From Fidelibacterota bacterium (lineage in GTDB: Bacteria; Fidelibacterota; Marinisomatia; Marinisomatales; S15-B10), in contig JBHIAI010000039.1 of NCBI GenBank assembly GCA_046861655.1, positions 1 through 14,753 on the forward strand: a stretch of DNA of 14,753 nt, in the 5' to 3' direction. Below, one piece after another: positions 1-14,753 of the stretch. The notes below the pieces were generated by a model. That model did no database searches. It saw nothing but the letters and a program-made list of their open reading frames with translations, and was not told the origin of the DNA. Position numbers and translations under genes: made by a program. The stretch's first letter is position 1. Each line of letters starts with the position of its first letter.

Positions 1-2
1 AC

Positions 3-1172
3 GTCTTTTTTCCGCACGGAATCCAGAAGGGCCACAAACCGGTCCGGCCTAACCGGAAACGCCTCCATCTCCCACGATTTTTCCTTGAGAATCCGGGTCA
101 CTTCCCCCACCATCCATTTCGATGCTTCTTTCGGGTCGGCTCCGAGATCAACCGCCTCCTCAAAGTAATCGGCAAATCCGGGATCGGAGGTAAGAATAAG
201 GACATCCTCCAAACGAAGAGCAAACTCTTTCACCAGCCGTTCTTCCCTTTCATGGGGGAGCTCAGGAAGGGCCGCCCTGATCTCTGATAGCCGCTTCTCA
301 GAGACTGTTACCGGCACCAGATCGGGATCGGGGAAATACCGGTAATCGTGAGCCTCCTCCTTGGTCCTCATCACTTCCGCCTTGCGGAGTTCCTCATTCC
401 ACAGCAGGGTCACGTGATCCACTTTCTCCCCCTTCTTGAGAAGCCCCGCCTGCCGCTCAATCTCATATTCAAGACCCCGTTCCACAGAGCGGAATGAATT
501 TAAGTTCTTCATTTCCGTTTTGGTCCCCATGACCGACTTTCCCCGGGGCCTCACCGAAATATTTGCATCACACCGCAGGTTGCCTTCCTCCATATTGCAG
601 TCGCAGATGTCCAGATACTGAAGGATTTGCTTAAGGGTAGAAAGATAGACCCGGGCTTCCAAGGGAGTACGGATAACCGGTTCCGTGACGATCTCCACCA
701 GCGGCACTCCGCAGCGGTTGAAATCCACCGCCGTCCCGTTATCGCGGTGGGCGTGAATCGACTTTCCCGCGTCTTCCTCCAGATGGATGCGTATGAGGGG
801 GATTTCTTTTGTACTTCCACCCAGTCTGATCTTTACGGACCCACCCCTGCACAGGGGTTCTTCATACTGGGATATTTGATACCCCTTGGGGAGATCGGGA
901 TAGAAGTAATTTTTCCGGGCGAATCGGGAAAAGGGGGTGATCTCACAGCCCAGGGCCACACCCAGTCTCAAAGCGTATTCGATGGCCCTGGCGTTGGGTA
1001 CAGGGAGGGAACCAGGGAGTCCCAGACAAACGGGACAGGTGTGTGTGTTAGGGGGGTCTCCGTAGGCGTTCAGGCAGCTGCAGAACATCTTGGTTCGAGT
1101 GGAGAGCTGAGCATGGGCTTCCAAACCGATAACAGCTTCCCACTCCCTCAGAATCGGGGATATCTTGGACAT
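3..1172 (-). CDS. gatB: Asp-tRNA(Asn)/Glu-tRNA(Gln) amidotransferase subunit B (3' end outside window)
   Basis: Not in the ORF track because there is no stop in the window. Manual translation from ATG 1172 gives MSKISPILREWEAVIGLEAHAQLSTRTKMFCSC...NTHTCPVCLGLPGSLP...RKNYFYPDLPKGYQISQYEEPLC...HLEEDAGKS...VDFNRCGVPLVEIVTEP...CNMEEGNLRCDANISV...EMKNLNSF...RTKEEAHDYRYFPDPDL, all GatB signature motifs. Confidence 0.97.
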   Translation of the reverse strand, partial: MSKISPILREWEAVIGLEAHAQLSTRTKMFCSCLNAYGDPPNTHTCPVCLGLPGSLPVPNARAIEYALRLGVALGCEITPFSRFARKNYFYPDLPKGYQISQYEEPLCRGGSVKIRLGGSTKEIPLIRIHLEEDAGKSIHAHRDNGTAVDFNRCGVPLVEIVTEPVIRTPLEARVYLSTLKQILQYLDICDCNMEEGNLRCDANISVRPRGKSVMGTKTEMKNLNSFRSVERGLEYEIERQAGLLKKGEKVDHVTLLWNEELRKAEVMRTKEEAHDYRYFPDPDLVPVTVSEKRLSEIRAALPELPHEREERLVKEFALRLEDVLILTSDPGFADYFEEAVDLGADPKEASKWMVGEVTRILKEKSWEMEAFPVRPDRFVALLDSVRKKD

Positions 1173-1228: not shown

Positions 1229-2086
1229 TTACGGGCTAAACCGGACGGAAAACAGATCAGGATCCGCGGACTCCGTGGAACCGAGGTTGATATTCACCAT
1301 GTACATTCGAATACCGGAATCGGCCAACGTCTTAATCTCCTCAAGAGGAATGGTCTCATCCACGGTCAGCTTGGTCCATCCCCTGGTAAGGTCTTTCACG
1401 CTGCGAATATCATCGGCAGTGAAGTGGAGACAGTAGATCATATCGACCCTGGCGTTTTCCAGCCTGGACAACTGATCAGGATCGGTGATTTCCACCGCTA
1501 CTTTGATGAGCTTCCGGCTTTCTCCGACTTCCCGCGTAACGCGCTGAAGGGCTTCTTTCGCTGAACCTGCCCATTCAATATGGTCCGCGGAAAGATACAC
1601 GATTTCATCCAGTCCCGTGGCGAAGGATACACCTCCCCCCTGCTCAACGGCGTAACGCATCGCCCTGTCGTGCCCCACCGGGAGATCAAGATTGTGGGTT
1701 ACCCGGATGCGTAGGGGTTTGAGCTCATCAACCACGGACTGGATTTTCCGCTGAATCATTGTCAGCATAACCATCAGCGGACGGGCAACCTGCCACCCTG
1801 TGAGGATGGCCTGACCGTTCCCTTCAAGGGTTCCTACAATGCCCCTGGAAAGGTAGGAGGCGTTTTCCGTCTCCTCCGTGGAAACCATCAGGCTGGAATC
1901 CCCGTGCTTCATGACCGCCTCCATGAGCCGGACGCACCAGGCGGGAACTGTGTCGTTTGCGACGACCTCGGCCCGGGTGTGGCGGGGATACGGCCACAGG
2001 CTTTCTGCGGTCACATCCCCGTCACCGAGCCTCCTGTCGTACAAGTCAAGAACCTGTTCAACGGCTTCTGCGTAAAGATCGGACAC
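1229..2086 (-). CDS. NadC/quinolinate phosphoribosyltransferase-fold protein with degenerate active site (probable pseudoenzyme)
   Basis: 285 aa, GTG start. Collinear with NadC over the full length (GDGDVT; RYAVEQGGG...GL; DHIEWAGS; KVAVE; DMI..LHF), but the ER, TRK, NHR, K-D-N-H, LDN and SGG motifs are substituted. Confidence 0.8.
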   Translation of the reverse strand: MSDLYAEAVEQVLDLYDRRLGDGDVTAESLWPYPRHTRAEVVANDTVPAWCVRLMEAVMKHGDSSLMVSTEETENASYLSRGIVGTLEGNGQAILTGWQVARPLMVMLTMIQRKIQSVVDELKPLRIRVTHNLDLPVGHDRAMRYAVEQGGGVSFATGLDEIVYLSADHIEWAGSAKEALQRVTREVGESRKLIKVAVEITDPDQLSRLENARVDMIYCLHFTADDIRSVKDLTRGWTKLTVDETIPLEEIKTLADSGIRMYMVNINLGSTESADPDLFSVRFSP

Positions 2087-2104: not shown

Positions 2105-2635
2105 TTAGGGCCACCGTTTCCGCTTTGATTTCATCTTCATTTTCATCTCGTGCTGATCGGACCCCATGCCGGCACGTCTCCTCACATGGTGCCAAAGATC
2201 ACGCTTGAACCGGCCTTCGAACACCAGGAACCTGGCTTTTTGTTCCGGGGTCAAAATGTCGCCCAGGCCTTCGAAGAACTCACGCTTCTTGTCCAGCTTC
2301 TCCTTCTCAATGACAGTGACTTCCTCCAGAATCCTGGACAGGTCTTTCCCCTGGATCTTCTTTCCCTCGTCCAGCATGGCGTCCACTTCTTTCAAAAGAT
2401 CACTCTGTTTATCACTCAGCGCTCGCACCTGATCGGTAAAGGAACTATGCCGTGGAAAAAACACTTTCGCCTGGTCTTCTGTCAGTTCCAGAACTTCTGT
2501 GAGTTTCCACATTTTCATCATTCGAATACCCTCGTCGCGCTGAGGCATCTCCATTCCATGAGGACCCGGTCCGTAAGGCGGTTCCTGGGCCACGGCTACA
2601 GCGAGCAGAAAAAGGTATACTTTAATCCATTTCAT
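2105..2635 (-). CDS. Spy/CpxP-like (LTxxQ motif) periplasmic helical protein
   Basis: Signal peptide MKWIKVYLFLLAVAVA|QE, Gly/Pro/Met/His-rich N-terminus, two LTxxQ motifs (LELTEDQ, ILTPEQK), helical charged core. GGAGG SD upstream. Lies after an ECF/anti-sigma pair. Confidence 0.75.
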   Translation of the reverse strand: MKWIKVYLFLLAVAVAQEPPYGPGPHGMEMPQRDEGIRMMKMWKLTEVLELTEDQAKVFFPRHSSFTDQVRALSDKQSDLLKEVDAMLDEGKKIQGKDLSRILEEVTVIEKEKLDKKREFFEGLGDILTPEQKARFLVFEGRFKRDLWHHVRRRAGMGSDQHEMKMKMKSKRKRWP

Positions 2636-2638
2636 CGT

Positions 2639-3061
2639 CTAACCCTCCGAATTGGATGGTGATTGGAAGTCAATGTATCCCAGCTGATCCAGTGTTTCCA
2701 CCGTTTTCCAGCCGTTCCCCATGAGATCGGCCTCCTGGATCAGGTAGTTCAGCGCTTCCAGAACAAGGGACGGATCCGCCCAGTCTACCTCTATCGTGTC
2801 CGTCTCACCAATATCAGAAAACAGGGCGAACTCATCATAGACCAGGTAGTCCTGATCCGAGGAGTTCCTCAAGTTCTGGAACAGACCCAGGGTGGTAATC
2901 AGGACGGCGGCCGCGGTGGTAACGGTCACGGCCAGTGTCTGTCTGACCTTTCTTCTATGAGTTAGGGTCCGGTGAAGCCGGTCAAGGAAATCGTGAGGGT
3001 CCGGTGCCTCGATCGTCCGATCAGCGGCCGCAATCAGTCTTTCTTCCAGGTCTTGGGTCAT
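2639..3061 (-). CDS. Putative single-pass membrane anti-sigma factor
   Basis: Short cytoplasmic N-terminus ending in basic HRRKVR, one hydrophobic helix (TLAVTVTTAAAVLITTLGLF), acidic C-terminal part. ATGA overlap with the ECF sigma gene. Function is inferred from position and topology. Confidence 0.65.
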   Translation of the reverse strand: MTQDLEERLIAAADRTIEAPDPHDFLDRLHRTLTHRRKVRQTLAVTVTTAAAVLITTLGLFQNLRNSSDQDYLVYDEFALFSDIGETDTIEVDWADPSLVLEALNYLIQEADLMGNGWKTVETLDQLGYIDFQSPSNSEG

Positions 3062-3576
3062 GATTCGTCCAGGGCCTTCCTCAGGTTCTTGAGAGCGTAG
3101 TGGAAATTCACCTTGGCGTTGTTCTCCGATATTTTCAGGATTCCACCAACTTCCTTAAAGGCGAGTCCCTGAAAGATTCTCAATATCACCACTTCCCTCT
3201 GCCTTTTTGGCAGCTTCCCGACAGCTTTCCATAGTGCGGGGAAGACGGTTTCATGGTCTCCTCCTTGCGACGGAAGATCGTCCGGGTTAACCGAACGGAA
3301 CAGCGTCTGGCGCAACTTCCGCTTCCGGAAGAACGTGTTGGCCACGTTGACGGAGATACGGTACAGCCAGGTGGAAAAGGACGATTCAAGCCGGAATCTC
3401 TTGAGACCGCGATGTACCCGGATGTACGTTTCCTGGCACAGGTCGTCCGCCTCCATCCTGTCTCCGACCATCCGGAAGAAAAACCGGAAGCTGTGTTGAT
3501 AGTACCGCGTGACAAGTTCATCAAACGCCCCTGTCTCTCCTTGTTGAAACCGTTGAACCAGCTGCTCATCCGTCAT
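3058..3576 (-). CDS. ECF-family (RpoE/SigW-like) RNA polymerase sigma factor
   Basis: 172 aa. Region 2: AFDELVTRY...EADDLCQETYIRVHRGLKRFRLESSFSTWLYRISVN. Region 4: LPKRQREVVILRIFQGLAFKEVGGILKISENNAKVNFHYA. Confidence 0.95.
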   Translation of the reverse strand: MTDEQLVQRFQQGETGAFDELVTRYYQHSFRFFFRMVGDRMEADDLCQETYIRVHRGLKRFRLESSFSTWLYRISVNVANTFFRKRKLRQTLFRSVNPDDLPSQGGDHETVFPALWKAVGKLPKRQREVVILRIFQGLAFKEVGGILKISENNAKVNFHYALKNLRKALDES

Positions 3577-3591: not shown

Positions 3592-3619
3592 TTTGACACC
3601 GCCGACACGAAAAGGTTAA
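3592..3619 (-). promoter_or_regulatory. Putative autoregulatory ECF-sigma promoter
   Basis: Minus strand TTAACCT (3619-3613), 16 nt spacer, TCAAA (3596-3592). Same geometry as the sigmaE-type consensus GGAACTT-N16-TCAAA, and the -10 ends 15 nt upstream of the sigma ATG. Confidence 0.65.
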
Positions 3620-3764
3620 ACGATACGGCGGCAATTACAAAACTGTTTTCGAGGCGGATGAACCCGCGAGTGTGGTTGGGTTTCTGAGCCCTTGATATCG
3701 CCGTGTGCCCTGGTGCTCAGGCATGGTAAGTATTATGGGCTGTCATCTTGAGACAAGACTAGGA

Positions 3765-3807: not shown

Positions 3808-4854
3808 ATGAGGATTGAGCCTACCAGAAGGCAGAAGGCAGCCATCGTTCACCCTCCGGGGCCACTTTTAATCATTGCAGGAGCGGGAACGGGGAAAACA
3901 ACCACCCTCATACTCCGGATTGAACACATGATCGAAACCGGGCAGGTTCCACCGGAGTCCATTGTAGTGATAACCTATACCGAAAGGGCGGCGGAAGAAC
4001 TGGCAGCAAGGATTGACGGTCACCTGGGAACCCGGAGTGAGGGAATTACTGTTTTCACCTTTCACGCTCTGTGCCGGCACCTGGTGGCAGAATACGGTAC
4101 CTCTCGGGACGCGGCGAAACCGCTGATCCGGGAGAATGACATCGTTTTTCTCCTACTTGACCGGTACGATTCCCTGCATATGCTCACTTCTCAGGCGTTC
4201 AAGTCCGATCCCATGGGTGCTGTAACGGGTAGCTTTATTCCGTTTTTCAACCGGATCCGGGATGAATTGCTTCTTCCGACAGAGGTGACGATCCTGTCCA
4301 GGGAACTCGAGCTCACGGAAGAAACGGTTCCGGGTCAGTTTCCGGGCCTCAGCGACAAGACAGATGCACAGGAATACGTGAGGCAGTTCCATGACCTGGT
4401 GAAGGTGTACGAAACCTACCAGTCGTGGAAAGTCGATCTGGGGGTGGTGGATTACGGTGACATGGTGACAGAATGCTGGGAGATGCTCCGGAACAGCGGC
4501 GACGTACTTCAGGCAGTTCGGGACCGGTACCGGCACATTGTGGTCGACGAATACCAGGATAACAATTACGCCCTGAATCAGATCATGAGTCTCATCGCCG
4601 GAGATAGTCCTGACATCACAGTAGTTGGAGACGAAGATCAGTGCATTTACAGCTTTCGTGGAGCAAACTACTACAACATTTACGATTTCAAGCAACGATA
4701 CGGTGTTACGCCGGAAAACGGTGAAATCTGGCTGGAGGAAAACCACCGTTCCACCCGGGAAATACTGGACCTGGCCAATGTAGCTATCGAAAGTGATAGA
4801 TACCGGACCCCGAAGAAGCTCGTTCCGGCTCAATCCAATCGGGGCCCCATGTAG
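3808..4854 (+). CDS. UvrD/PcrA-family SF1 helicase, N-terminal part of a frameshift-split helicase-nuclease
   Basis: Q motif (RRQKAAI), Walker A AGAGTGKT, Ia ITYTERAA, Ib TFHA, II VVDEYQDNN, III VVGDEDQCIYSFRGA, IV LEENHRST. Terminates at TAG 4852-4854, shortly after motif IV. Confidence 0.92.
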   Translation: MRIEPTRRQKAAIVHPPGPLLIIAGAGTGKTTTLILRIEHMIETGQVPPESIVVITYTERAAEELAARIDGHLGTRSEGITVFTFHALCRHLVAEYGTSRDAAKPLIRENDIVFLLLDRYDSLHMLTSQAFKSDPMGAVTGSFIPFFNRIRDELLLPTEVTILSRELELTEETVPGQFPGLSDKTDAQEYVRQFHDLVKVYETYQSWKVDLGVVDYGDMVTECWEMLRNSGDVLQAVRDRYRHIVVDEYQDNNYALNQIMSLIAGDSPDITVVGDEDQCIYSFRGANYYNIYDFKQRYGVTPENGEIWLEENHRSTREILDLANVAIESDRYRTPKKLVPAQSNRGPM

Positions 4855-4892: not shown

Positions 4893-6914
4893 GTGGAGAG
4901 TCTGGTGGAACGGGGATACAACTACGGGGACGTGGCGGTTCTATGCCGCACGTGGAACCAGGCGAGGACCGTGGCCGGCGCCTTGGAACGGACCTTTGTT
5001 CCCGTGGATATTTTTGAGGAACACTTTTTCGACAATCCCCTGGTAAAGGACGTTCTGGCCTGGGGAAACCTGCTGTCCCGAAGTTTCGGGACCGGAGCGA
5101 ATGATGCCCTGTTCCGTGTTTTGAGTCAGCAGGCGGGATCTTCATTCGCCGAATCGTTTTTCCGGAGCCAGGAAGAATCCACCCTTGGGGAGCGACTGGC
5201 CCAGCTGAGAACCATGATTGAACCGGATTCGATGGATCAGGAACGGAGAGAGAAGCTTTCTTGGATGCTCGAGACTCTCTCATCGCTCAAGACAAAGCTC
5301 AAACAGAAGCGGCGGGCAGACGAGATGATCTGGGAGATCCTGGATGCCACGGATCTCCTGAAATCCACCCGTCACAGCTATCGCCACCTGGAGCGCCTGG
5401 CTCTGGTCAATGCTGGCCGCCTATTGTCCCTGGCGGAGGATTTTGTGGCCCGGGAAAACCAGTCCAGTGGCGGACTTGACCGATGGTTGAGGTATATGGA
5501 CATTCTGACCCTGAGAGGTTCCATGCCTACCATCTTCTCCCCCGGACCTCGACGGCAAACTGACCTGGGTGTACAGGTGATGACCATTCACGGCAGCAAG
5601 GGGCTAGAGTTTCCGGTCGTCATGATACCGTTTCTTCAAGCAGGGAGTCTTCCCCTCTCCCATACTCCATCATCCACGGTCGATTGTCTTCCGGAATCGT
5701 GGTACCGATGGACAAGACCCAAGAACATGACCCCCCGGGATGAGCAGGTAAGCGAGGAGCGGAGGATTTTCTTTGTTGGGTTGACCCGGGCCAAGAACGA
5801 GATACATTTGTTTGGCCCGGAAAAGCGCCGATCGCTGTTTATCAAGGAGATCTTTGAACGATCGGACCAATGTTTGGAGGTCAAAACTATGGCTGAGACA
5901 TCCTCTACAATTAGCCATCCCAAAGCCTCGGGACAGACCGTGAAGCAGAGGATCCTGGTGGCACTCAACCGCGAACTTTCCAGCGGTCAATACACCTATG
6001 CCCACGAACTCATTGAAGGGCTGAGATCCCTGGATCAAGAAGGGAAACTTCCGGATGATTTTCCTCTTGCCTTCTCGGTAGAAGATCTGGCGGGACTGGA
6101 GCGCCGGCCGGAGGAGACCGGGGAGTCTTCCCCGGCCAGCTTCCCTGCTCCCGGGGAGCCGCCAGGCCTGAGGCCAGAGGTGACTCTCTCGGCCAGCAGC
6201 GCTGAAGAATACGATCGATGTCCCTACAAATACCGACTCAAGGAAATTGACAAGGTTCCGGAGCGCAAAAGCAGGGTCCAGATGGAATTCGGCATCATCA
6301 TCCACCGGGTCCTCGAGGAGTTCCATGCCAGCGGCACTACAGAGTGGGGGCTGGATCATCTCCTATCCCTGCTGGACAAACACTGGAGATCTGAAGCCTT
6401 CGAGTACGTGGTCCGTGAGGAGGAATTCAAGCGACAGGGAATACAGATGCTCACTGATTACTTCCAATTCTCCCTGGCCCATCCCCCTGAGGTTTTGGCC
6501 AGGGAGGCGCGGTTCGATTTCACTCTGGATGAACTTAACGTGCGGGTCGCGGGAAAGATTGACCGCGTGGACCGGGAGGGCGAAGCCCTAAGCGTGACCG
6601 ATTACAAAACTGGGAGAAACAGGGAAAAAGCCGGATCAAGCCTGCAGCTTGCTCTGTACACGGAAGCCCTGAAGCGGAATGCCGTAACAGGCATTGAAGG
6701 CAAACCGGGTTCAGCCCGCCTGCACTTCCTACGCTTTCCAGAGGAGCCGCTGGAAAGTCACCTCTTCTCCTCCAAAGAACTCCAGACGCATCTCGAAACC
6801 CTGGAAAAGGTGGCAAACGGCATCCGGAGAGGGGAGTTTTCCCCAAAGAAAGGGTGGCACTGCAGGTTCTGCGACTACCGGGACTTTCTCTGTCCGGCCT
6901 GGGAAGAAAGCTAA
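4893..6914 (+). CDS. C-terminal part of the UvrD-like helicase plus PD-(D/E)XK (AddA/AddB/AdnB-like) nuclease with Fe-S cysteines; frame is open upstream past 4848
   Basis: Helicase motifs VAVLCRT, V MTIHGSKGLEFPVV, VI EERRIFFVGLTRAK. Nuclease motifs LSASS...CPYKY, GIIIHRVLE, GKIDRVD, DYKTG, QLALY, terminal CRFCDYRDFLC. Confidence 0.92.
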   Translation: MESLVERGYNYGDVAVLCRTWNQARTVAGALERTFVPVDIFEEHFFDNPLVKDVLAWGNLLSRSFGTGANDALFRVLSQQAGSSFAESFFRSQEESTLGERLAQLRTMIEPDSMDQERREKLSWMLETLSSLKTKLKQKRRADEMIWEILDATDLLKSTRHSYRHLERLALVNAGRLLSLAEDFVARENQSSGGLDRWLRYMDILTLRGSMPTIFSPGPRRQTDLGVQVMTIHGSKGLEFPVVMIPFLQAGSLPLSHTPSSTVDCLPESWYRWTRPKNMTPRDEQVSEERRIFFVGLTRAKNEIHLFGPEKRRSLFIKEIFERSDQCLEVKTMAETSSTISHPKASGQTVKQRILVALNRELSSGQYTYAHELIEGLRSLDQEGKLPDDFPLAFSVEDLAGLERRPEETGESSPASFPAPGEPPGLRPEVTLSASSAEEYDRCPYKYRLKEIDKVPERKSRVQMEFGIIIHRVLEEFHASGTTEWGLDHLLSLLDKHWRSEAFEYVVREEEFKRQGIQMLTDYFQFSLAHPPEVLAREARFDFTLDELNVRVAGKIDRVDREGEALSVTDYKTGRNREKAGSSLQLALYTEALKRNAVTGIEGKPGSARLHFLRFPEEPLESHLFSSKELQTHLETLEKVANGIRRGEFSPKKGWHCRFCDYRDFLCPAWEES

Positions 6915-8827
6915 GACCTCTGAAAATCTCCGATTGTCTTCGCTTCCTTCCTTTCGTTCCCGTACCTGTCGGCGAAGAGAATCAGCATGGTACTCTCCGA
7001 TGCCTCCACGGGAAACTTGACCTCGTAGCCCTCCCGGATCAGATCCTCCGAACTCCAGACGTGATCGGGTCGGAACACCCGTCCGTTCGGGGCACGATCC
7101 AGAGCCACCATCCCAAGGGCACCCACCCCGGCCCGTTCCCGGACCTGGCTTCTGAAATCCTTTATGGTGATGACGGCCTGGTGACCTCGTCCCGGTTTGC
7201 TGGACTCAAGCCGGTACCGGCAGGAAACATCGGGAGGAAGATTGACCTCATACCTGGCAGAATCGACGATCTCCTTGAGGGACTTCTGGACCTCGAAGCT
7301 CTCCGTCCGCAAGCCGCCCTCAGACAAAAGCTCCTCCTCAACGGAATGGGGAACGCGGAGGATTCGAAACTCCGTACCGTTCACCGTTACCACGTCCTCC
7401 AGGAAGGAAACCATCCCCTCGGGGACGACTATGAGAACGCAGTCAAATGAGCCTTCCAGTGGTTCGCTTATCTCCCGGACACGGTGGCGATCAAGTTCGG
7501 AGTTGAACATCAGTACGGGACATCCCTTCCACCTGCCCACGAATTCCATTCCTTTGTGAGCGAACGGCCTGTATTCGAAACCGAGGAGTTCGGCGATGAG
7601 CTGTCGGTAGACTTCCGTGGGAACCTTCTTTCTTGGCCGGCCGTCAGATCCGTTTCCAGGACGAGCCCGGTAGATGGCAAAGGGTGAGGGGGGGATGGCC
7701 TTTCCCCGGTTGCCATTTCCCTGCCTGAGCTGAAGCATCCTGCGGAACACGGTATACGTTGAGGTCCTGGAGGAATCGATCATGATCCACCTCCGGCCCA
7801 TTTTCTCCGCAACGGCGCCGGTGGTCCCCGACCCCCCGAATGCGTCGAGGACAACATCCCCGGGCCTGGATGAGGCACCGATGACCCTTTCAAGAAGGTC
7901 TTCCGAGTTTTCCGAAGGAAAATTCCATTTGAAACTGTACCCCGGGATGTCCGTCCAGTTGGAATCGAGGATCTCCCGGGCTGAGGTGAGGTATTCCAGG
8001 ATCCCTGTTCTCGAATTGACGCGGATGCGGCCTTCATGGGCATACCGTTCGAGCCTCTCCTGAGAGAATGTCCAGTGGCGACCCTCAGGAGGCAACCACA
8101 CCCTATCCTCAAACACCCGTCCGCGGGAATAGATGTTCGCGTCCTGGCGGGCCTTGAGTTGATTCTCCTCGTAGAAGGGAAGGTAGTGGGCATTCACCTT
8201 CGTCCATCGAATCCCCGGGGAGTGCATGGGAACCCATTTCTGTTTTCTCCTGGACCGGGTGAAACCGTTGAAGACGCACTGTTTATTCCTGGAATAAAAG
8301 TAGAGAGTGTCGGTGGCGCTGTTAAAGCGGTGAATTCCGTCGAACACCTTCTTGGTCCTGCGGACGATGATTTCATTCCTGAAGTTTTCCTGACCGAACA
8401 ATTCGTCCAGCAACACTTTCACGTAGTGACCAAAATGGTAATCGGTTCGCAGGTAAAAACTGCCGTCCTCGGACACAAGGTCCCTCAGGAGGACGATCCT
8501 GGTTCTGAGCCACTCCAGGTACCTCGGTCCCTTCAGCCGGGCTGAATAGATGCTGACCTGGTCTCGATCGTAAACATCCCCGGTACCGAACGGAGGATCG
8601 ATGTAGACCAGACGAACGCCGGAAGAACCGTCACCGTTCGTTAGAATACCCTCCTCCTTGTATCCCAGGAGAGTTTTCAGCACCGGTAGATTGTCTCCCA
8701 TGATCATCCGGTTGTGCCATCCGGACAGACCGATTTTGCCCAGGGTTTTCACCGGCTCTAGAACGGAGGGGGCGGTACGGCGAGCTATCTGGTTCCCCGC
8801 GGTCTTTCCCGGATACGCCAGCTTCAT
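6911..8827 (-). CDS. Site-specific DNA methyltransferase, beta class (N6-adenine likely), type III Mod-like
   Basis: GDNLPVL, catalytic motif IV VYIDPPF, FRNEII, then SAM-binding VLDAFGGSGTTG (beta order). About 270 aa C-terminal extension ending ...FADRYGNE. Confidence 0.9.
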   Translation of the reverse strand: MKLAYPGKTAGNQIARRTAPSVLEPVKTLGKIGLSGWHNRMIMGDNLPVLKTLLGYKEEGILTNGDGSSGVRLVYIDPPFGTGDVYDRDQVSIYSARLKGPRYLEWLRTRIVLLRDLVSEDGSFYLRTDYHFGHYVKVLLDELFGQENFRNEIIVRRTKKVFDGIHRFNSATDTLYFYSRNKQCVFNGFTRSRRKQKWVPMHSPGIRWTKVNAHYLPFYEENQLKARQDANIYSRGRVFEDRVWLPPEGRHWTFSQERLERYAHEGRIRVNSRTGILEYLTSAREILDSNWTDIPGYSFKWNFPSENSEDLLERVIGASSRPGDVVLDAFGGSGTTGAVAEKMGRRWIMIDSSRTSTYTVFRRMLQLRQGNGNRGKAIPPSPFAIYRARPGNGSDGRPRKKVPTEVYRQLIAELLGFEYRPFAHKGMEFVGRWKGCPVLMFNSELDRHRVREISEPLEGSFDCVLIVVPEGMVSFLEDVVTVNGTEFRILRVPHSVEEELLSEGGLRTESFEVQKSLKEIVDSARYEVNLPPDVSCRYRLESSKPGRGHQAVITIKDFRSQVRERAGVGALGMVALDRAPNGRVFRPDHVWSSEDLIREGYEVKFPVEASESTMLILFADRYGNERKEAKTIGDFQRS

Positions 8828-9972
8828 CAGGGCGGCGAGTCCTCATCGCTGTCCGATTCGGCCAAAAGATCAACGTCTGCGTCCGTTTGCGACTCTTCCA
8901 GGGGAGGTCCGGACCCGATTTCCTTGATTTTTTTCAGGGGTTTTTCCAGTTGACGGGTTCGTGTCGTGGTAAGGGTTTCAAATTCCTTTCTGGCATCATC
9001 GATCCTCTTGCCCATTCGGTTCATGGATTCCACGTATTTCTGCCACTGGCTTTCGAATTCGGCCAGGAGGGCCATGATCTGCCCGGCCTTTCTCTCCATG
9101 GAAAAACTGCTCAGTGCCTGGTGGATGAGAGACAGAACCGCGTAGAGGGTGATGGGCGAACACAGGATAATGTGGTTTTCCAGGGCGAAATCCAGGAGAG
9201 AAGGGTCATTCTGATGAACAAAGGCATAGATGCTTTCGTTCGGGATGAACACAAGCACATAATCCACTGTTCCACCGGCAGGATCGACATACCCTCTGGA
9301 AGCCACATCTTTTACATGGCCTTTTACATCGCTCAGGAATGATTTGCGTTCCTTGTCCCTCTCCGACTGTGATTGGGCGGATACGTAGCGTTCATAATGG
9401 GTCAGCGGGAACTTCACGTCCATGTTCACCTTCCTTTCTTTGGGCAGAAAGAAGGTAAAGTCGGGCTTCTCCCCTGAGTCCGTCTGCTTCTGTTTCACGT
9501 AGTTCACGTTTTCTATCAGTCCCACCACGTTGAGAATGTCTTCCACCATTCGTTCTCCCCACTGACCCCTGGCCTGAGAACTGGAGAGGACCGTCCGAAG
9601 GTCTTCTGCGGTGGTCCGGAGCTTGTCTGTCTCTTTGCGGCTCTCGGAGAGCTCAGTGGAGAGTCTGGTGGACTTTTCCCTGAGATCCTCCAGGACGGCA
9701 GCCATCTTTCCCAGGTTGGCGTCGATCAGCTTCCGTTTTTCCTCCAGAGTCGCTTCCCCTTTTTCGATCTGACCTCTCAACGTTTCATTGGCCAGTTTGA
9801 GAAACTGATCGGTAGTCTTGATGAGCGCTTCGGTGGAAAGGGAGGTAAACGCCTCTCTCATTTCACCTTTTGCCGCCTCGAGATTCGCCTCCCTTTGATG
9901 GAGAATAAGGTAGATCGCCGCGCCTCCCAGAATGAGGCCGATTAACAATACAAGAATGGAGGAGATGTCCAC
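8827..9972 (-). CDS. rmuC: DNA recombination protein RmuC
   Basis: N-terminal TM helix and coiled coil, then RGQWGE, KPDFTFFLP, MDVKFPL, HVKDVASRGY, TVDYVLVFIPNESIY, SPITL, followed by a C-terminal coiled coil. GTG start. Confidence 0.93.
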   Translation of the reverse strand: MDISSILVLLIGLILGGAAIYLILHQREANLEAAKGEMREAFTSLSTEALIKTTDQFLKLANETLRGQIEKGEATLEEKRKLIDANLGKMAAVLEDLREKSTRLSTELSESRKETDKLRTTAEDLRTVLSSSQARGQWGERMVEDILNVVGLIENVNYVKQKQTDSGEKPDFTFFLPKERKVNMDVKFPLTHYERYVSAQSQSERDKERKSFLSDVKGHVKDVASRGYVDPAGGTVDYVLVFIPNESIYAFVHQNDPSLLDFALENHIILCSPITLYAVLSLIHQALSSFSMERKAGQIMALLAEFESQWQKYVESMNRMGKRIDDARKEFETLTTTRTRQLEKPLKKIKEIGSGPPLEESQTDADVDLLAESDSDEDSPP

Positions 9973-10007: not shown

Positions 10008-10082
10008 CCTCATTTCTTCCACGACAAAGAGTCCGGAATTTTCAACTTTTCTGGACCCTGGAGAACACGTATTTTGGCCCTC

Positions 10083-11597
10083 ATGCTTCCTGTCATCCAG
10101 GTCTTTCCGAACCCATGGATCACCTTCGTTGCGTTCCTGGTTTTCATCTCTGGTTTCCTGGCACTGGCAGAATTGGCCAGCCGGAGTCTGAGGTGGTCCC
10201 CCGAGACCACCCGTAAACTTGTGCACCTCCTGGTGGGGACCCTTGTGATCCTCTCCCCGTTCCTTTTCGAATCAAGACTTCCCGCCGTCATTCTGGCCAT
10301 CATTTTTGTTGTCGTCAACGCGGTCACCGTTAAGACCGTGCGTTTAAGAGGAATCAACGGCACCGGCCGACAAACATACGGAACGGTGTATTTCCCTTTC
10401 GCCTACATGATCCTGTGCCTGTTCTGGTGGGAGCGTCCCATCACACTGGAGATCTCCCTTCTTCTCCTCACATTTGCCGATACGGCAGCCGCTGTGGTGG
10501 GTGAGAAAATCAAGTCCCCGGATCGATATGTGGTTTGGTCCGACGTCAAATCGGTACAGGGGTCCCTCACCATGTTTCTGGTTTCGCTGTTTGTCGTTGG
10601 CGGTGGAGTTCACCTGCTTCACCAGATCGCCGGTCTGGAGCCTCCGGGTGTGGATATCGTTGTTCCCCTTTCCCTGTTCGTGGCGGCTCTGGTCACCATC
10701 GCCGAGGCAACGTCCCATTCCGGATCGGATAATCTGAGCGTACCCCTGGTGGCCGCGGTGGGAACAGACCTTTTTCTGGCCAACACCCAGAGTGGAGAAC
10801 TCCTGGGGCTCTTGTTCTGGGTGGTATTCTCCCTGATTCTGGCCTGGTCCGCGTACCACGTAAGAGCCCTGACCATGGACGGAAGCATAGCAGCCTTTAT
10901 GATTGGCGTATTCATTTTCGGGATTGGAGCCTGGAAGTTCATGATTCCCCTGGGCACTTTTCTCGTGGCGTCCTCCCTCCTTTCCCGGATCAAGCCCCCG
11001 ATCAAGGCAGAACTTGAAACCCAGGGGCTGGGAAAAGGGGCTCAGCGGGACCTGATGCAAGTTCTTTCCAACGGAGGAGTCCCCCTGATCCTTGCCGTCT
11101 GGTGGTTCTATTCTCCCCTCCCATTGCTGTACGTAGCGTACGTGGCCAGTGTGGCGGCGGCGAATGCCGATACCTGGGCCACCGAAATCGGACTTCTATC
11201 GAGGTCGTCCCCGAGGGATTGCGTTACATTCCGCGTGGTGGAGCCGGGGACATCAGGAGGAATCACTATCCTGGGCACGGCCGGGGCCGCCGCGGGCGGT
11301 GCCGTGATCGCTGTTTCTGCCTTACCCTTCCTGTCCGGTTACACCCCAGCGTTTTTCTGGGTGGCAGGGGCGGGCTTCCTGGCGAGCCTCCTAGATTCCG
11401 TTCTCGGAGCCACAGTCCAGGCCACCTACCGGTGTCCGAACTGCCAGAGAATCACGGAGTTGCCCAATCATTGCGATCAACAGGCCATTCTGGCCAAGGG
11501 GAGGCGATCCATCACAAATGACACTGTCAATCTGTTCTGTTCTTTCGCCGGAGGGGCGTTTATTCTGCTTCTGCCAACTCTTCCAGCCATCGGGTGA
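10083..11597 (+). CDS. Membrane protein: phytol/dolichol-kinase-like (CTP-transferase-like) domain fused to DUF92/TMEM19 domain
   Basis: N-half: ETTRKLVH, YGTVYFPF, FADTAAAVVG, KSVQGS, DNLSVPL. C-half: LTMDGS, QRDLMQVLSNGG, AANADTWATEIG, PGTSGGIT, DSVLGATVQ, CPNC...HC, NDTVN. ATG 10083 preferred over the in-frame TTG at 10074. Confidence 0.88.
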   Translation: MLPVIQVFPNPWITFVAFLVFISGFLALAELASRSLRWSPETTRKLVHLLVGTLVILSPFLFESRLPAVILAIIFVVVNAVTVKTVRLRGINGTGRQTYGTVYFPFAYMILCLFWWERPITLEISLLLLTFADTAAAVVGEKIKSPDRYVVWSDVKSVQGSLTMFLVSLFVVGGGVHLLHQIAGLEPPGVDIVVPLSLFVAALVTIAEATSHSGSDNLSVPLVAAVGTDLFLANTQSGELLGLLFWVVFSLILAWSAYHVRALTMDGSIAAFMIGVFIFGIGAWKFMIPLGTFLVASSLLSRIKPPIKAELETQGLGKGAQRDLMQVLSNGGVPLILAVWWFYSPLPLLYVAYVASVAAANADTWATEIGLLSRSSPRDCVTFRVVEPGTSGGITILGTAGAAAGGAVIAVSALPFLSGYTPAFFWVAGAGFLASLLDSVLGATVQATYRCPNCQRITELPNHCDQQAILAKGRRSITNDTVNLFCSFAGGAFILLLPTLPAIG

Positions 11598-12927
11598 TCC
11601 GCTCCACCTGAGAGACGGGAAGCGAATAAACATAGGGATAATCCCGACGCTTGACGTAACGGTTATCGTTGAACCCGTCACCGATTTCAAAGCCCTCCTC
11701 CTCGCCCTTTGTGCCTGTCAACACTACCTCCAGAAAGGGAATTCGGAGTCCGTAGTTCGCCAGATCGCCCGGTTCGTAGGTGACCAAATCGGTCACCCTC
11801 AGTGACCGGAGGTTAGAATGGAGCCGGTTTATCCTGGATGGGTCAACTTTCAGGGTCGTGTCCCCGTGAGCGTACCATCCCAGGGTGTCTTCCCGAACCA
11901 GGGTCCACCGGTAGGCTCCTGAAAAGCGTATTTCCCGAATCTCTTCTTTCTCAGTACCTACCAGCTTTTTCTCCTCAAAATAGAAAGGATCCTTGGTCAG
12001 GGTGTTTCGGGTAGACTCCCGGATAACAAAAACCGGAGTCCGGCCCGATTCGTGAGCGTAATAGCCTTCCTCTTTCTCGTCGAGTTTCCCCACTACGATC
12101 TCTTTTGTCGACTGCTCCTCCCCCAGAGTTAGTCTTATCCGTACGGAGGGACGGTCGAAACCGTATGGCTTACCATCCTCCCACTCCTCGCTGACAAAGG
12201 TCCTGGCTGAATAGTTCTTCAGACTTCGCAAGAATCCCCGTATCCGGGATTCATCCAAGGGCAAGTCCCTCGGCGCTGCCATACTCCACTTTCCACCCGG
12301 TTTTTCCAGAACGATATCTGTGCCATTCCAGTTCAGCTCCACCTTGTTCACCCGGGTATCATCAAAATGGGCGATCTTTTTGTCCCGTAGATCGAATAAT
12401 GACTTTGTGGCCTGAACCCGGACGGTGTTGGTGGTGACAAGAACGTCCACGGAGTCCTCATCCCCTTCTCCGTCCATGAGGGCGACAAAGATATCCCCCC
12501 GGGTTGCCGTTTCTTTTCCGACCAAGAGATGTTTCTCCGTTCCGTCTTTCTTCTTGATGAGCACCTCCGCTTCGGGAGGATCCAGGCCAAAATCCGCCAG
12601 GGACTCCCTCTTGACGGACCATCGGCGTTTTGTTCTCGCATCGGCGAAGGTGCGAACGTTGGCCCGGATGGAAGATTCTTCGGCGGATGTAGCCACAGGA
12701 GAAACGATGTACCAGGTGTTTCCATCCGGCCCAGACCGGACGTAGGCGAGGGTGTCCCGGCCTTCCTGGACCAGAGTGATGGATTCCACGTCATCGTCGT
12801 TTATTCTAAGAAATAAGGACTCCTGTTCCCGGGCCTTTTCCCGTTCGAGGCCTCCCCTGTACTCGTAGAAATAGACGAAGGCAAACAGAGCCAAGAAAAT
12901 GCCCAGAAGAATCCCCGTTTTCTTCAT
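11560..12927 (-). CDS. DUF4340 domain-containing membrane-anchored protein
   Basis: N-terminal anchor, then repeats carrying W..xP and (F/Y)G(L/F)xxP signatures (LADFGLDPP, KPYGFDRP, LANYGLRIP). Directly downstream of a GldG-like gene. Confidence 0.85.
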   Translation of the reverse strand: MKKTGILLGIFLALFAFVYFYEYRGGLEREKAREQESLFLRINDDDVESITLVQEGRDTLAYVRSGPDGNTWYIVSPVATSAEESSIRANVRTFADARTKRRWSVKRESLADFGLDPPEAEVLIKKKDGTEKHLLVGKETATRGDIFVALMDGEGDEDSVDVLVTTNTVRVQATKSLFDLRDKKIAHFDDTRVNKVELNWNGTDIVLEKPGGKWSMAAPRDLPLDESRIRGFLRSLKNYSARTFVSEEWEDGKPYGFDRPSVRIRLTLGEEQSTKEIVVGKLDEKEEGYYAHESGRTPVFVIRESTRNTLTKDPFYFEEKKLVGTEKEEIREIRFSGAYRWTLVREDTLGWYAHGDTTLKVDPSRINRLHSNLRSLRVTDLVTYEPGDLANYGLRIPFLEVVLTGTKGEEEGFEIGDGFNDNRYVKRRDYPYVYSLPVSQVERITRWLEELAEAE

Positions 12928-12930
12928 ACC

Positions 12931-14505
12931 CTATGACCGGTTGGCATAGACATGGAGACCCCACCGGACTGCCACAAGGGGTAGAAGAATGATCAGGAAG
13001 AACAGCGTCAGTCTCTGCTGTCTCAAGGTCATGGTAAGAGGACGGTTTTCCGGGTCTTTCGGCCGGACCGATATGAGGTCCTCTTCCTCCGCAAGCCAGC
13101 TAACCGCATTGAGGAAAAAATCCATGTTCCCCGGGGCCTGCTGCACGTAGACATCGGACGCGAAATCGGAATCTCCTACCAGAACCAGCCGGCCCTTCGG
13201 ACCCTGAATCTTTTCAACAGCGGCGGCCACGATGGCGGGACCGGGATTGTCGTCCTCGTCCCTGGAAACCTTTCCCTCGGTAAACAGGCGCTGAAGATCC
13301 TTTTCGCCCCAGCTGTTCCTGCTTGTGTACACCAGGGGAGTTGTCCTGAACGTGTCAGACTCTTCATCCACGAGGGCAAGGGACTGAGTCTTGACGAAGG
13401 AGGTGGCAAAGCGAAAATTCTTCGTGATGGTGTGCTCGCCGTATTCAGCCGACGACGGGGCAATACTAACGTTACTCTGGCGGCTGAGTCCTCCGGCGGA
13501 AAGGACAAAACTGGAATGGGATTCCATCACCATGTCGTGATTCAGGGCGACGTTCCATGCTTCCACCAGGGAATCCACGCCCGCGTTCGCCTCCGGATCC
13601 AAAAGGGCCAGTACACTTCCTCCCTCATCCAGAAACTTACCCATGGCGTCTACCTCGTTGGATGCGAGACTGCGCAGAGGGCCCGCGATCACCACCACAT
13701 CTCCATCGTCCGGGACCTGGTTTTCCTGAAACAGGCTCAGTTCATCCACATCGAAATACTGTTTCTCCAGATTCTCTCTCACAAACTGGTACCCGTCCAT
13801 GCCGGGCTGGTCGGGATAGATGGTTTTCTCTCCATGCCCCCGGAGGAAATACACCTTCTGGCTCTCTTTGCGGGTCACCCGGATGAGGGCATTGGTGATA
13901 TCCTCCTCCTGAACGCCGTGGATTTCTTCTTCTTTACCCGGCCGTGCCTCGGACATGTCCGTTTTCAGGAGAACCGTGGGCAGGTCGAGATACTGTTTTT
14001 CCGGACCGAAGAATTCCCGTACCCGGGCCGGTTCTTTAATGGGATCGATGATCTCAAAATGGAATCTCCCGCTGTAGTGGCCATATTCTCTCAGGCGGTC
14101 CTCCATATCCCGAACCTGGGTTTCGTCGACGAAGGCGGTGAGAGTGACTTCATGCTCCAGGTTGCGAAGAATTCTCACCGTTTGATCGGACAGGCTGAAT
14201 CGCTTCTGGGAGGTGGAATCCACTCTCCAGGAATGGCGGATCGATAGGAAGTTCAACAGTCCAATGATACCGATGACAAGAACGGTCACCACGAGGGCGT
14301 TAGCGCTCATCTGTGTCTTCCGGCTCGTGACAGAAGAGACAAGTGTCTTTCGGTTCGAGACAATGGTCAGGACGACAAGAGCCAACCCAAGAGCAATCAG
14401 CGTCCAGGCAATCCAATCGAAATTGACTATGGAAACGCCATACAGCCAACCCAGGAGGAGAATTCCCAAACCGTCATAGCCGGCGCCTCGCCACAACTTT
14501 TTCAT
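12931..14505 (-). CDS. GldG-like ABC-transporter auxiliary component (GIFT domain)
   Basis: Three N-terminal TM segments, RVDSTSQKRFSLSDQT, IIDP, EEDITNALIRV, KVYFLRGHGEK, VVVIAGP, FLDEGGSVL, RLVLVGDSDF, GNMDFFLNAVSWL, ISVRPK, C-terminal TM. ATG 14505 overlaps the upstream stop (TGATG); alternative in-frame ATG at 14517. Confidence 0.88.
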   Translation of the reverse strand: MKKLWRGAGYDGLGILLLGWLYGVSIVNFDWIAWTLIALGLALVVLTIVSNRKTLVSSVTSRKTQMSANALVVTVLVIGIIGLLNFLSIRHSWRVDSTSQKRFSLSDQTVRILRNLEHEVTLTAFVDETQVRDMEDRLREYGHYSGRFHFEIIDPIKEPARVREFFGPEKQYLDLPTVLLKTDMSEARPGKEEEIHGVQEEDITNALIRVTRKESQKVYFLRGHGEKTIYPDQPGMDGYQFVRENLEKQYFDVDELSLFQENQVPDDGDVVVIAGPLRSLASNEVDAMGKFLDEGGSVLALLDPEANAGVDSLVEAWNVALNHDMVMESHSSFVLSAGGLSRQSNVSIAPSSAEYGEHTITKNFRFATSFVKTQSLALVDEESDTFRTTPLVYTSRNSWGEKDLQRLFTEGKVSRDEDDNPGPAIVAAAVEKIQGPKGRLVLVGDSDFASDVYVQQAPGNMDFFLNAVSWLAEEEDLISVRPKDPENRPLTMTLRQQRLTLFFLIILLPLVAVRWGLHVYANRS

Positions 14506-14753
14506 CACGGCCTCCATCTCAGACTTTGAATGGACTCATGGGCAAGAAAGAGGGCGATGCCCGTCAGGGAAAGATAATAAACAAGGTGCCCCGTGTCGAA
14601 AACACCTTTGGCAAAGTCATCGAAGTGTTCCACCACAGAAACATACTCGAAGAAATCGCCGAGAAAACTGGTAGTAAAATGTGAAAACCATCCCACAAGC
14701 CACAGAAACAGCAGCGCCACACAGGTCCCCATGGCTGAGATGATCTGATTCTC
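14505..14753 (-). CDS. GldF-like ABC-2 transporter permease (C-terminal part; 5' end outside window)
   Basis: Frame is open to the window edge: ENQIISAMGTCVALLFLWLVGW...YVSVVEHFDDFAKGVFDTGHLVYYLS...SIQSLRWRP, typical of the GldF-family C-terminus. Confidence 0.88.
   Translation of the reverse strand, partial: ENQIISAMGTCVALLFLWLVGWFSHFTTSFLGDFFEYVSVVEHFDDFAKGVFDTGHLVYYLSLTGIALFLAHESIQSLRWRP

What the first reader, a model, noticed from the sequence alone, without database searches (positions are those of the whole stretch)
1229..2086. Intact, full-length NadC/QPRTase homolog with its active site erased: candidate pseudoenzyme
Seen: an uninterrupted 285-aa ORF that aligns by eye end to end with NadC, yet nearly every substrate-binding motif is replaced. 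ILTAERTALN becomes ILTGWQVARP; LDTRKTTPG becomes THNLDLPVG; GGGxNHRxGL becomes GGGVSFATGL; LIKDNH becomes YLSADH; DIIMLDNF becomes DMIYCLHF; EASGGI becomes TVDETI; VDxISVGAL becomes IRMYMVNIN. Only the Glu of the V-E motif and structural residues remain. Established: the Arg/Lys/His residues of these motifs bind quinolinate, and the Asp/SGG/G residues bind Mg-PRPP. Inference: loss concentrated in catalytic residues, with fold and length kept and no stops, suggests a repurposed non-catalytic protein (ligand sensor, scaffold, or regulatory subunit of a true NadC) rather than a decaying pseudogene.
Basis: partly seen in the sequence, partly recalled or inferred. Interest (0 to 1): 0.78.

Follow-up and report, generated by a model that had tools for sequence, protein, structure and literature searches.

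The report
Dead NadC kept in stress operon
A gene that looks like the NAD-making enzyme NadC but has lost its active site has been kept intact by selection in many Marinisomatota bacteria, inside an ECF sigma factor operon where some relatives still carry the working enzyme, which suggests that this enzyme has a second, non-enzymatic job.

Summary
Observation confirmed. Window 2086-1229 (minus strand) encodes a 285-aa protein with the full QPRTase fold (Z 23 to 1qpr). Four of the five residues whose single mutation abolishes the M. tuberculosis enzyme are replaced. It is not strain-level decay: orthologues at 38-67% identity occur in 11 of 401 phylum genomes, with dN/dS 0.12-0.27. It is gene 4 of an operon: ECF sigma, anti-sigma, Spy-like protein, NadC-like gene and, in relatives, a lipoprotein, behind a conserved ECF-type promoter. 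The same slot holds an intact nadC in two sister families and a second dead family in 27 genomes. Of those 27, 23 have a separate catalytic nadC; 8 of the 11 carriers of this family have none. That argues against the 'subunit of a true NadC' and 'substrate sensor' readings. Intact and dead slot proteins share residues rare in ordinary NadC. Best reading: a moonlighting NadC reduced to a non-catalytic accessory role in the ECF module. The partner is unknown, and most of the phylum keeps the module without it.

The parts
1229..2086 (-). NadC/QPRTase-fold pseudoenzyme (group A), 285 aa, GTG start, no transmembrane segment or signal peptide evident
2105..2635 (-). Spy/CpxP-like exported helical protein (signal-peptide-like N-terminus); stop lies 18 nt before the NadC-like start
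   Evidence: weak Metal_resist/LTXXQ hits below cut-off; family alignment; found in 324 of 401 phylum genomes
2639..3061 (-). single-pass membrane anti-sigma-like protein (hydrophobic segment at residues 43-61); proteins in the same slot in groups B and C carry zf-HC2, this one lacks that domain
   Evidence: the anti-sigma role is inferred from position and from the zf-HC2 slot-mates
3058..3576 (-). ECF sigma-70 factor, first gene of the operon
   Evidence: Sigma70_r2 and r4_2; NCBIfam; alignment
3592..3620 (-). ECF-type promoter-like site (TTTAACC...GTCAAA) 15 nt before the sigma start; conserved upstream of sigma orthologues; the top-scoring site in the genome
   Evidence: a loose AAC-N16/17-NGT pattern matched 67 of 76 upstream regions (redundant loci, a few hits misplaced), mostly 41-54 nt from the start; PWM scan, score 29.2 against next 18.1, window site in the training set
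1..1172 (-). gatB (cut by the window end), follows the NadC-like gene after 56 nt here; not the usual neighbour (a lipoprotein gene is)

Best explanation
The protein is a catalytically dead descendant of a housekeeping nadC that sat as gene 4 or 5 of an autoregulated ECF sigma / anti-sigma / Spy-like / lipoprotein operon in the ancestor of these Marinisomatota (Fidelibacterota) lineages. SHOWN: the fold is kept, the quinolinate- and PRPP-binding residues are lost, purifying selection acts, the operon slot is fixed, and the slot holds an intact enzyme in sister families. INFERRED: the ancestral enzyme had a second job. When catalysis became dispensable (pathway not found in most group A carriers) or was supplied by another nadC lineage (group B), only the second job was kept. 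INFERRED: it still folds as the usual head-to-tail dimer and works as a soluble protein-binding accessory (modulator or scaffold) of the ECF envelope-stress module. It would do so through residues shared by intact and dead slot proteins but rare in ordinary NadC: E28, Y33, G91, W/Y172 and the four-residue insertion carrying E186-x-G188-x-x-R191-x-x-I194. The partner is not identified; the cytoplasmic part of the anti-sigma or the sigma factor are the only other cytoplasmic products of the operon. It is an optional accessory. Odds: no QPRTase activity about 0.95; maintained by selection about 0.9; role tied to the ECF module about 0.45.
For: Mtb R105', R139, R162 and K172 map to Q99, L133, A156 and S166 (register; spacing matches at a constant offset of 6), and each single Ala mutant is inactive (PMC4065032). 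In 18 group A sequences (some near-duplicates), K140, H161, R162, K172 and D222 are kept 0 times, R105 and R139 once each; the phosphate-binding Ser is Asp in 18 of 18. dN/dS is 0.12-0.27 in five unsaturated group A pairs, against 0.13-0.17 for intact slot nadC and 0.05-0.41 for neighbouring genes; Fisher p 0.005, 7e-31 and 4e-39 for three pairs. All 11 group A genomes have the gene right after the Spy-like gene. Seven of 8 intact slot nadC follow the Spy-like gene(s) (the eighth is cut by a contig end) and each is the only nadC found in its genome, with nadA present. Group B occurs in 27 of 401 genomes, and 23 of 27 have a second nadC above the cut-off. G21, G23, D24, T26, E28, G89, G151, L159, H169, G188 and R191 are invariant across 21 A+B sequences that are only 18-23% identical between the groups. 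G188 is found in 18/18 A, 13/13 B and 6/8 intact, with a gap in 112 of 123 ordinary NadC; W/Y172 in 17/18, 13/13 and 8/8, and is not among the common residues in ordinary NadC. A conserved ECF-type promoter heads the operon.
Against: The module does well without it: the Spy-like gene is in 324 of 401 genomes, the dead forms in 11 + 27. Of 40 further module loci, 11 had a dead NadC and 29 showed none in the stretch fetched (some cut short); 12 join Spy directly to the lipoprotein gene. G003 keeps sigma, anti-sigma and Spy but has a 98-aa internally deleted remnant. Intact slot-like nadC is detached from the sigma module in G062, G115, G125 and G166. Fixed synteny can be inertia. The shared signature may only be a reinforced dimer interface inherited from a common ancestor; no coordinates were available to test surface exposure. 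A G258R variant at a column invariant in group A is present in 2 of the 3 runs that cover the site.
Confidence: 0.45

Rival explanations
1. Non-catalytic protein with a role unrelated to the ECF module (binds some other cytoplasmic protein or nucleic acid, such as the salvage enzyme PncB); it stays in the operon through inherited gene order.
For: The module is widespread without it. A PncB-like gene was found with one query in 7 of 11 group A genomes. The promoter's regulon in G000 appears to be little more than this operon, which says nothing about partners.
Against: No dead copy was seen outside the operon in any locus examined (11 group A, about 20 group B), whereas intact copies do move. 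PncB was not found with that query in 4 of 11 carriers. The net charge is negative (-4 to -18), against nucleic-acid binding.
Confidence: 0.2
2. New enzyme or new small-molecule/metal sensor: the barrel mouth has been rebuilt (H131, H169, E199, C219, D243, Y262 in group A).
For: H131, D243 and Y262 are invariant and C219 is at 0.89 in 18 group A sequences, all absent from ordinary NadC; these positions lie at or near barrel strand ends.
Against: Group B has different residues at these columns, so the two families share no new site. E199 varies to Asp in 5 of 18. Pocket-floor aliphatic positions became aromatic (Y164, Y218, F155), which suggests filling-in (inference). With a shallow alignment many columns are invariant by descent (34).
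Confidence: 0.18
3. Regulatory or dominant-negative subunit of a catalytic NadC (heterodimer).
For: 23 of 27 group B genomes and 3 of 11 group A genomes have a catalytic nadC. QPRTase active sites are shared between subunits (PMC4065032), so a dead subunit could throttle activity.
Against: 8 of 11 group A genomes (83-97% complete), including the window's own, have no catalytic nadC found, and 10 of 11 no nadA, yet selection persists in pairs from such genomes (G000/G001 0.165, G018/G056 0.118, G016/G031 0.265).
Confidence: 0.08
4. Slowly decaying passenger: translated, harmless, under selection only against misfolding or polar effects, and on its way out.
For: Frequent loss, an internally deleted copy in G003, a long stem branch, and the G258R variant.
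Against: It is full length, without stops inside the match, in all 11 + 27 genome hits but one (a TAA flagged in G091, whose ORF translates to an intact 282 aa). dN/dS equals that of intact nadC and of neighbouring genes. Family-specific invariant residues exist.
Confidence: 0.07
5. Still an active QPRTase with an unusual active site.
For: The fold, H175 and E201 equivalents are kept; it is the only NadC-like gene found in 8 of 11 genomes.
Against: All four basic quinolinate ligands, D222 and the SGG loop are lost. No quinolinate source was found in G000 (no nadA, kynureninase, 3-HAO or TDO hit), while pncA/pncB salvage is present.
Confidence: 0.02

Closest known systems
NadC / quinolinate phosphoribosyltransferase (TIGR00078, PF01729 + PF02749; type II PRTase)
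   Same: Two-domain fold, length, GDxT motif, His of KDNH, Glu of the VE motif; 20-26% identity; descends from it
   Different: ER, DTRK, NHR, KDN, LDN, SGG and SVG motifs are replaced; 66 bits against a cut-off of 198; lies in an ECF operon and not with nadA/nadB
Intact operon-slot NadC of Marinisomatota families f22/f27 (L041-L047, L049)
   Same: Same gene order and promoter type, same G91/W172/G188-R191-I194 signature; best non-family hits of the group A profile
   Different: They keep every catalytic motif and are the only nadC found in genomes that have nadA
ModD (TIGR01334)
   Same: NadC-like protein of unclear function; nearest named clusters by language-model features, 0.94
   Different: 27 bits against a cut-off of 179, lower than the NadC score; no mod genes nearby; ModD keeping TRK/HR is recalled, not tested
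YbiB/TrpD2 (PMC10123104; passages read)
   Same: A phosphoribosyltransferase-fold dimer without its family's catalytic function, acting by binding macromolecules, in a stress-regulated operon: what this works like
   Different: Type III PRTase fold, positively charged grooves that bind DNA and ObgE; the present protein has the type II fold and is net acidic
Moonlighting human QPRT-caspase-3 interaction (bioRxiv 10.64898/2026.04.01.715697; abstract and one results section read)
   Same: A QPRT fold binding a protein partner independently of catalysis (the K139A mutant still binds)
   Different: An active eukaryotic enzyme with an unrelated partner; a preprint

Membership tests
NadC/QPRTase (enzyme family) | N-terminal alpha/beta sandwich plus open alpha/beta barrel fold | tested here: met
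   (Z 23.1, rmsd 3.5, 271 aligned)
NadC/QPRTase (enzyme family) | Quinolinate-binding R105', R139, R162, K172 (Mtb numbering) | tested here: not met
   Q99, L133, A156, S166
NadC/QPRTase (enzyme family) | PRPP/Mg-binding K140, E201, D222, SGG, G270 (roles recalled; K139 of human QPRT shown essential) | tested here: not met
   only E199 kept; D134, L220, D243-E244-T245, N265
NadC/QPRTase (enzyme family) | TIGR00078 equivalog cut-off 198.4 bits | tested here: not met
   66.4 bits
NadC/QPRTase (enzyme family) | QA + PRPP to NaMN activity; homodimer | not testable with these tools
   needs assay and biophysics
ModD | TIGR01334 cut-off 178.85 bits | tested here: not met
   27.4 bits
ModD | Association with molybdate transport genes | tested here: not met
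   neighbours are sigma, anti-sigma, Spy-like, lipoprotein, uvrD-like and gatB
Pseudoenzyme (class) | Enzyme fold with catalytic residues lost across orthologues | tested here: met
Pseudoenzyme (class) | Maintained by purifying selection | tested here: met
   dN/dS 0.12-0.27 by Nei-Gojobori; one pair saturated
Pseudoenzyme (class) | Expressed, and inactive in assay | not testable with these tools
   no RNA holder listed
Accessory regulator of an ECF sigma/anti-sigma system | Conserved position in the sigma operon behind an ECF-type promoter | tested here: met
Accessory regulator of an ECF sigma/anti-sigma system | Physical or functional interaction with sigma or anti-sigma | not testable with these tools
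   needs pull-down or reporter assay

The most novel reading that the evidence does not exclude
NadC was a bifunctional protein in ancestral Marinisomatota: NAD-synthesis enzyme and cytoplasmic modulator of an ECF envelope-stress sigma/anti-sigma pair, possibly coupling quinolinate/PRPP/NaMN status to the stress response. Catalysis was then shed independently twice (group A with loss of the pathway, group B after gaining another nadC), leaving dedicated regulators. The phylum would hold a complete living series from moonlighting enzyme to pseudoenzyme regulator to loss, and a new way of controlling ECF sigma factors.
Probability: 0.2. Interest if true: 0.8.

Novelty: new variant of a known kind. 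Interest (0 to 1): 0.58.

Why it matters
Pseudoenzyme origins are usually inferred after the fact. Here the intact enzyme, two dead families and clean deletions occupy one orthologous operon slot, so the idea that a second function predates loss of catalysis can be tested by comparing real proteins. It points to an unrecognised non-catalytic role for bacterial NadC. It also warns that Pfam QRPTase_C hits in these genomes (the only NadC-like gene found in 8 of 11 group A carriers) must not be read as de novo NAD synthesis. None of my literature searches listed a bacterial NadC pseudoenzyme or this operon; the library omits most subscription papers.

Tried and rejected
Complex prediction of two NadC-like chains with the ECF sigma: no answer (score 0.00, controls not folded); not evidence either way. 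The anti-sigma and the homodimer were not tested (one job only). One versus two losses of catalysis is unresolved. The careful tree puts A+B on one side of a branch (99/96), but holding A with the intact f22 proteins is not rejected (p-AU 0.483). A+B support vanishes when motif columns and the C-terminus are dropped (quick tree only), and the RpoB tree of 29 genomes leaves A, B, f22 and f27 as an open fork. Expression: no RNA holder listed. Regulon: the PWM scan gave 4 sites against 2-6 in shuffles, so only the operon's own site stands out; sigma-70 promoter and terminator scans were at chance level. The model of the downstream lipoprotein of relatives (pLDDT 78) had no convincing PDB match (best TM 0.28) and no Pfam hit; that gene was not found in G000. 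The search for related loci with the group A alignment added no group A member outside Fidelibacterota/Marinimicrobia-labelled or unlabelled records. No search for fused or shorter forms was made. Earlier scan findings: nothing returned. No supplements were read.

Full report
OBSERVATION. Window 2086 to 1229 on the minus strand is an open 285-codon frame starting at GTG. It hits Pfam QRPTase_C at E 8.8e-13 and QRPTase_N weakly, TIGR00078 nadC at 66 bits (cut-off 198) and ModD at 27 (cut-off 179), and PDB QPRTases down to E 6e-13. An AlphaFold2 model from a 10-sequence alignment (pLDDT 82, pTM 0.82) matches QPRTases over its whole length: TM 0.77-0.79 for the best matches; Z 23.1, rmsd 3.5 A, 271 residues with 1qpr. 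In the register, Mtb R105', R139, R162, K172 and H175 fall on Q99, L133, A156, S166 and H169; the spacing agrees at a constant offset of six. Single Ala mutants of each had no detectable activity (PMC4065032, passages read). Only H169 is kept. Of 28 polar positions conserved at 90% or more in 123 ordinary NadC sequences the protein keeps 5 (one of them in a poorly aligned insertion); of 17 Gly/Pro/hydrophobic positions it keeps 8. A contig from a public run spans the gene with one change.

A FAMILY, NOT A DECAYING ALLELE. Source names give Fidelibacterota / Candidatus Marinimicrobia. Orthologues at 38-67% identity are in 10 of 60 relatives from five families. A profile search of 401 phylum genomes finds the same 11, G000 included, at E below 1e-105, and nothing between that and 1e-42. 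Among 1.8 billion representatives only four clusters score below 1e-30. In 18 sequences (some near-duplicates), K140, H161, R162, K172 and D222 are never kept, and the Ser of SGG is always Asp. Nei-Gojobori dN/dS is 0.12-0.27 in five pairs (a sixth is saturated), like neighbouring genes (0.05-0.41) and intact nadC in the same slot (0.13-0.17); nonsynonymous depletion is significant in the three pairs tested. Against this: a G258R variant at an otherwise invariant column is in two of three runs covering the site, and G003 has a 98-aa remnant with the middle deleted.

CONTEXT. The gene is fourth in a tightly packed minus-strand run: ECF sigma (3576-3058), a single-pass anti-sigma-like protein (3061-2639), a Spy/CpxP-like exported protein (2635-2105), then the NadC-like gene. 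All 11 group A genomes keep this order, usually followed by a lipoprotein gene of about 330 aa, with a UvrD/PD-(D/E)XK gene upstream. Proteins in the anti-sigma slot of groups B and C carry zf-HC2. A TTTAACC-N-GTC(T/A)AA site lies about 47 nt before the sigma start in most loci (a loose pattern matched 67 of 76 redundant upstream regions; several misses have ATC for GTC). In G000 it is by far the best site, and the total number of sites is at shuffle level. That this is the sigma's own promoter, and that the module answers envelope stress, is inferred from general ECF biology.

THE SERIES. The same slot has four states. (i) Intact nadC with all motifs in families f22 and f27 (8 genomes); it is the only nadC found in each, and nadA is present. 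(ii) Group A, the window's family: 8 of 11 have no other nadC and 10 of 11 no nadA in assemblies 83-97% complete. G000 gave no hit for nadA, kynureninase proper, 3-HAO or TDO but has pncA/pncB. (iii) Group B, a second motif-less family with different replacements (it keeps R105' but loses TRK, NH, K172 and D222, and remodels the last strands). It is in 27 of 401 genomes; 23 have a separate nadC of about 318 aa from another lineage above the cut-off, 2 have contig-broken pieces and 2 have none found. (iv) Empty: the Spy-like gene is in 324 of 401 genomes; of 40 more loci, 11 had group B and 29 no NadC-like gene in the stretch fetched, 12 with Spy joined directly to the lipoprotein. Whether A and B lost catalysis once or twice is open.

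WHAT IS KEPT. Across A and B (18-23% identical), G21, G23, D24, T26, E28, G89, G151, L159, H169, G188 and R191 are invariant. Some are general NadC residues. E28, Y33, G91, W/Y172 and a four-residue insertion with E186-x-G188-x-x-R191-x-x-I194 are shared with intact slot NadC to varying degrees (G91 8/8, W172 8/8, R191 7/8, G188 6/8, E28 6/8, Y33 3/8, E186 1/8) and are rare or gapped in 123 ordinary NadC. From recalled QPRTase architecture these elements lie at or beside the dimer interface, outside the substrate pocket; I could not measure this.

MECHANISM. Shown: fold kept, chemistry lost, selection, operon slot, and loss of catalysis that goes with either loss of the pathway or gain of a substitute enzyme. 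Inferred: a second, non-catalytic role predates the loss and is what selection preserves. Most likely (0.45) it is a soluble accessory of the ECF module acting by protein binding, since sigma and the anti-sigma N-terminus are the only other cytoplasmic products of the operon and no dead copy was seen outside it. Rivals: unrelated partner with inherited synteny (0.2); new catalytic, ligand or metal site built from H131/H169/E199/C219/D243/Y262 (0.18; not shared with B); subunit of a true NadC (0.08; possible for B, hard for A); passenger (0.07); active QPRTase (0.02). The strongest point against the favoured reading is that most of the phylum runs the module without the gene.

COMPARISON WITH WHAT IS KNOWN. 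It belongs to the QPRTase fold family but fails the NadC enzyme tests, and it fails the ModD cut-off and context, although ModD clusters are nearest by language-model features. It works like YbiB/TrpD2, a non-catalytic PRTase-fold dimer in a stress operon (PMC10123104, passages). Catalysis-independent protein binding by a QPRT fold is reported for human QPRT and caspase-3 (bioRxiv 10.64898/2026.04.01.715697, abstract and one section). A review of ECF stress responses has no mention of NadC, quinolinate or CpxP (PMC8103513, term search). Searches listed nothing on a bacterial NadC pseudoenzyme or this operon (listings only; open-access library). Other, unrelated motif-eroded NadC-like proteins turned up, so erosion of NadC recurs in bacteria.

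VERDICT. A real, conserved and apparently undescribed NadC pseudoenzyme family with an unusually complete evolutionary series in one operon slot. It is a new variant of a known kind; interest 0.58; the partner and phenotype remain to be shown.

Noticed in passing
window 3808-4854 and 4893-6914 (+): The UvrD/PD-(D/E)XK helicase-nuclease gene is split by a frameshift. One public contig has 13 more bases behind position 4847, and relatives have one ORF of about 1000-1170 aa, so the split is probably an assembly slip or a local variant.
   Followed up: partly
L120-L135, L154-L198; P0137: A separate NadC-like family in soil MAGs labelled Dormiibacterota/Chloroflexi follows panB-panC-like genes, has a long Pro-rich N-terminal extension, and has lost NHR, KDN, LDN and SGG while keeping ER and DTR.
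   Followed up: partly
P0061, P0108, P0122, P0139, P0154: Further unrelated full-length NadC-like proteins with eroded catalytic motifs; their contexts were not examined.
   Followed up: no
L075-L082: Group B genomes encode a divergent catalytic NadC of about 315 aa with an N-terminal extension and an LDN-to-FDH change, on a long branch: the likely replacement enzyme.
   Followed up: partly
L005:455-1444 and orthologues: A conserved lipoprotein of about 330 aa downstream of the slot has no Pfam hit and no convincing PDB fold match; not found in G000.
   Followed up: partly
window 2639-3061; L097:7577-8179: The anti-sigma lacks the N-terminal zinc finger (zf-HC2) in the window's class, in carriers and non-carriers alike, but has it in the f22 and group B proteins tested.
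   Followed up: partly
G000:C41 near 71914 and 71012 (-): Two similar TGTAACC...GTCTAA sites, one 16 nt before another ECF sigma gene, probably that factor's own promoter.
   Followed up: no
window 6911-8827 (-), 8827-9972 (-), 10074-11597 (+), 11560-14517 (-): A DNA methylase, RmuC, a DUF92 membrane protein, and DUF4340 / ABC_transp_aux genes; ordinary, unrelated to the finding.
   Followed up: no
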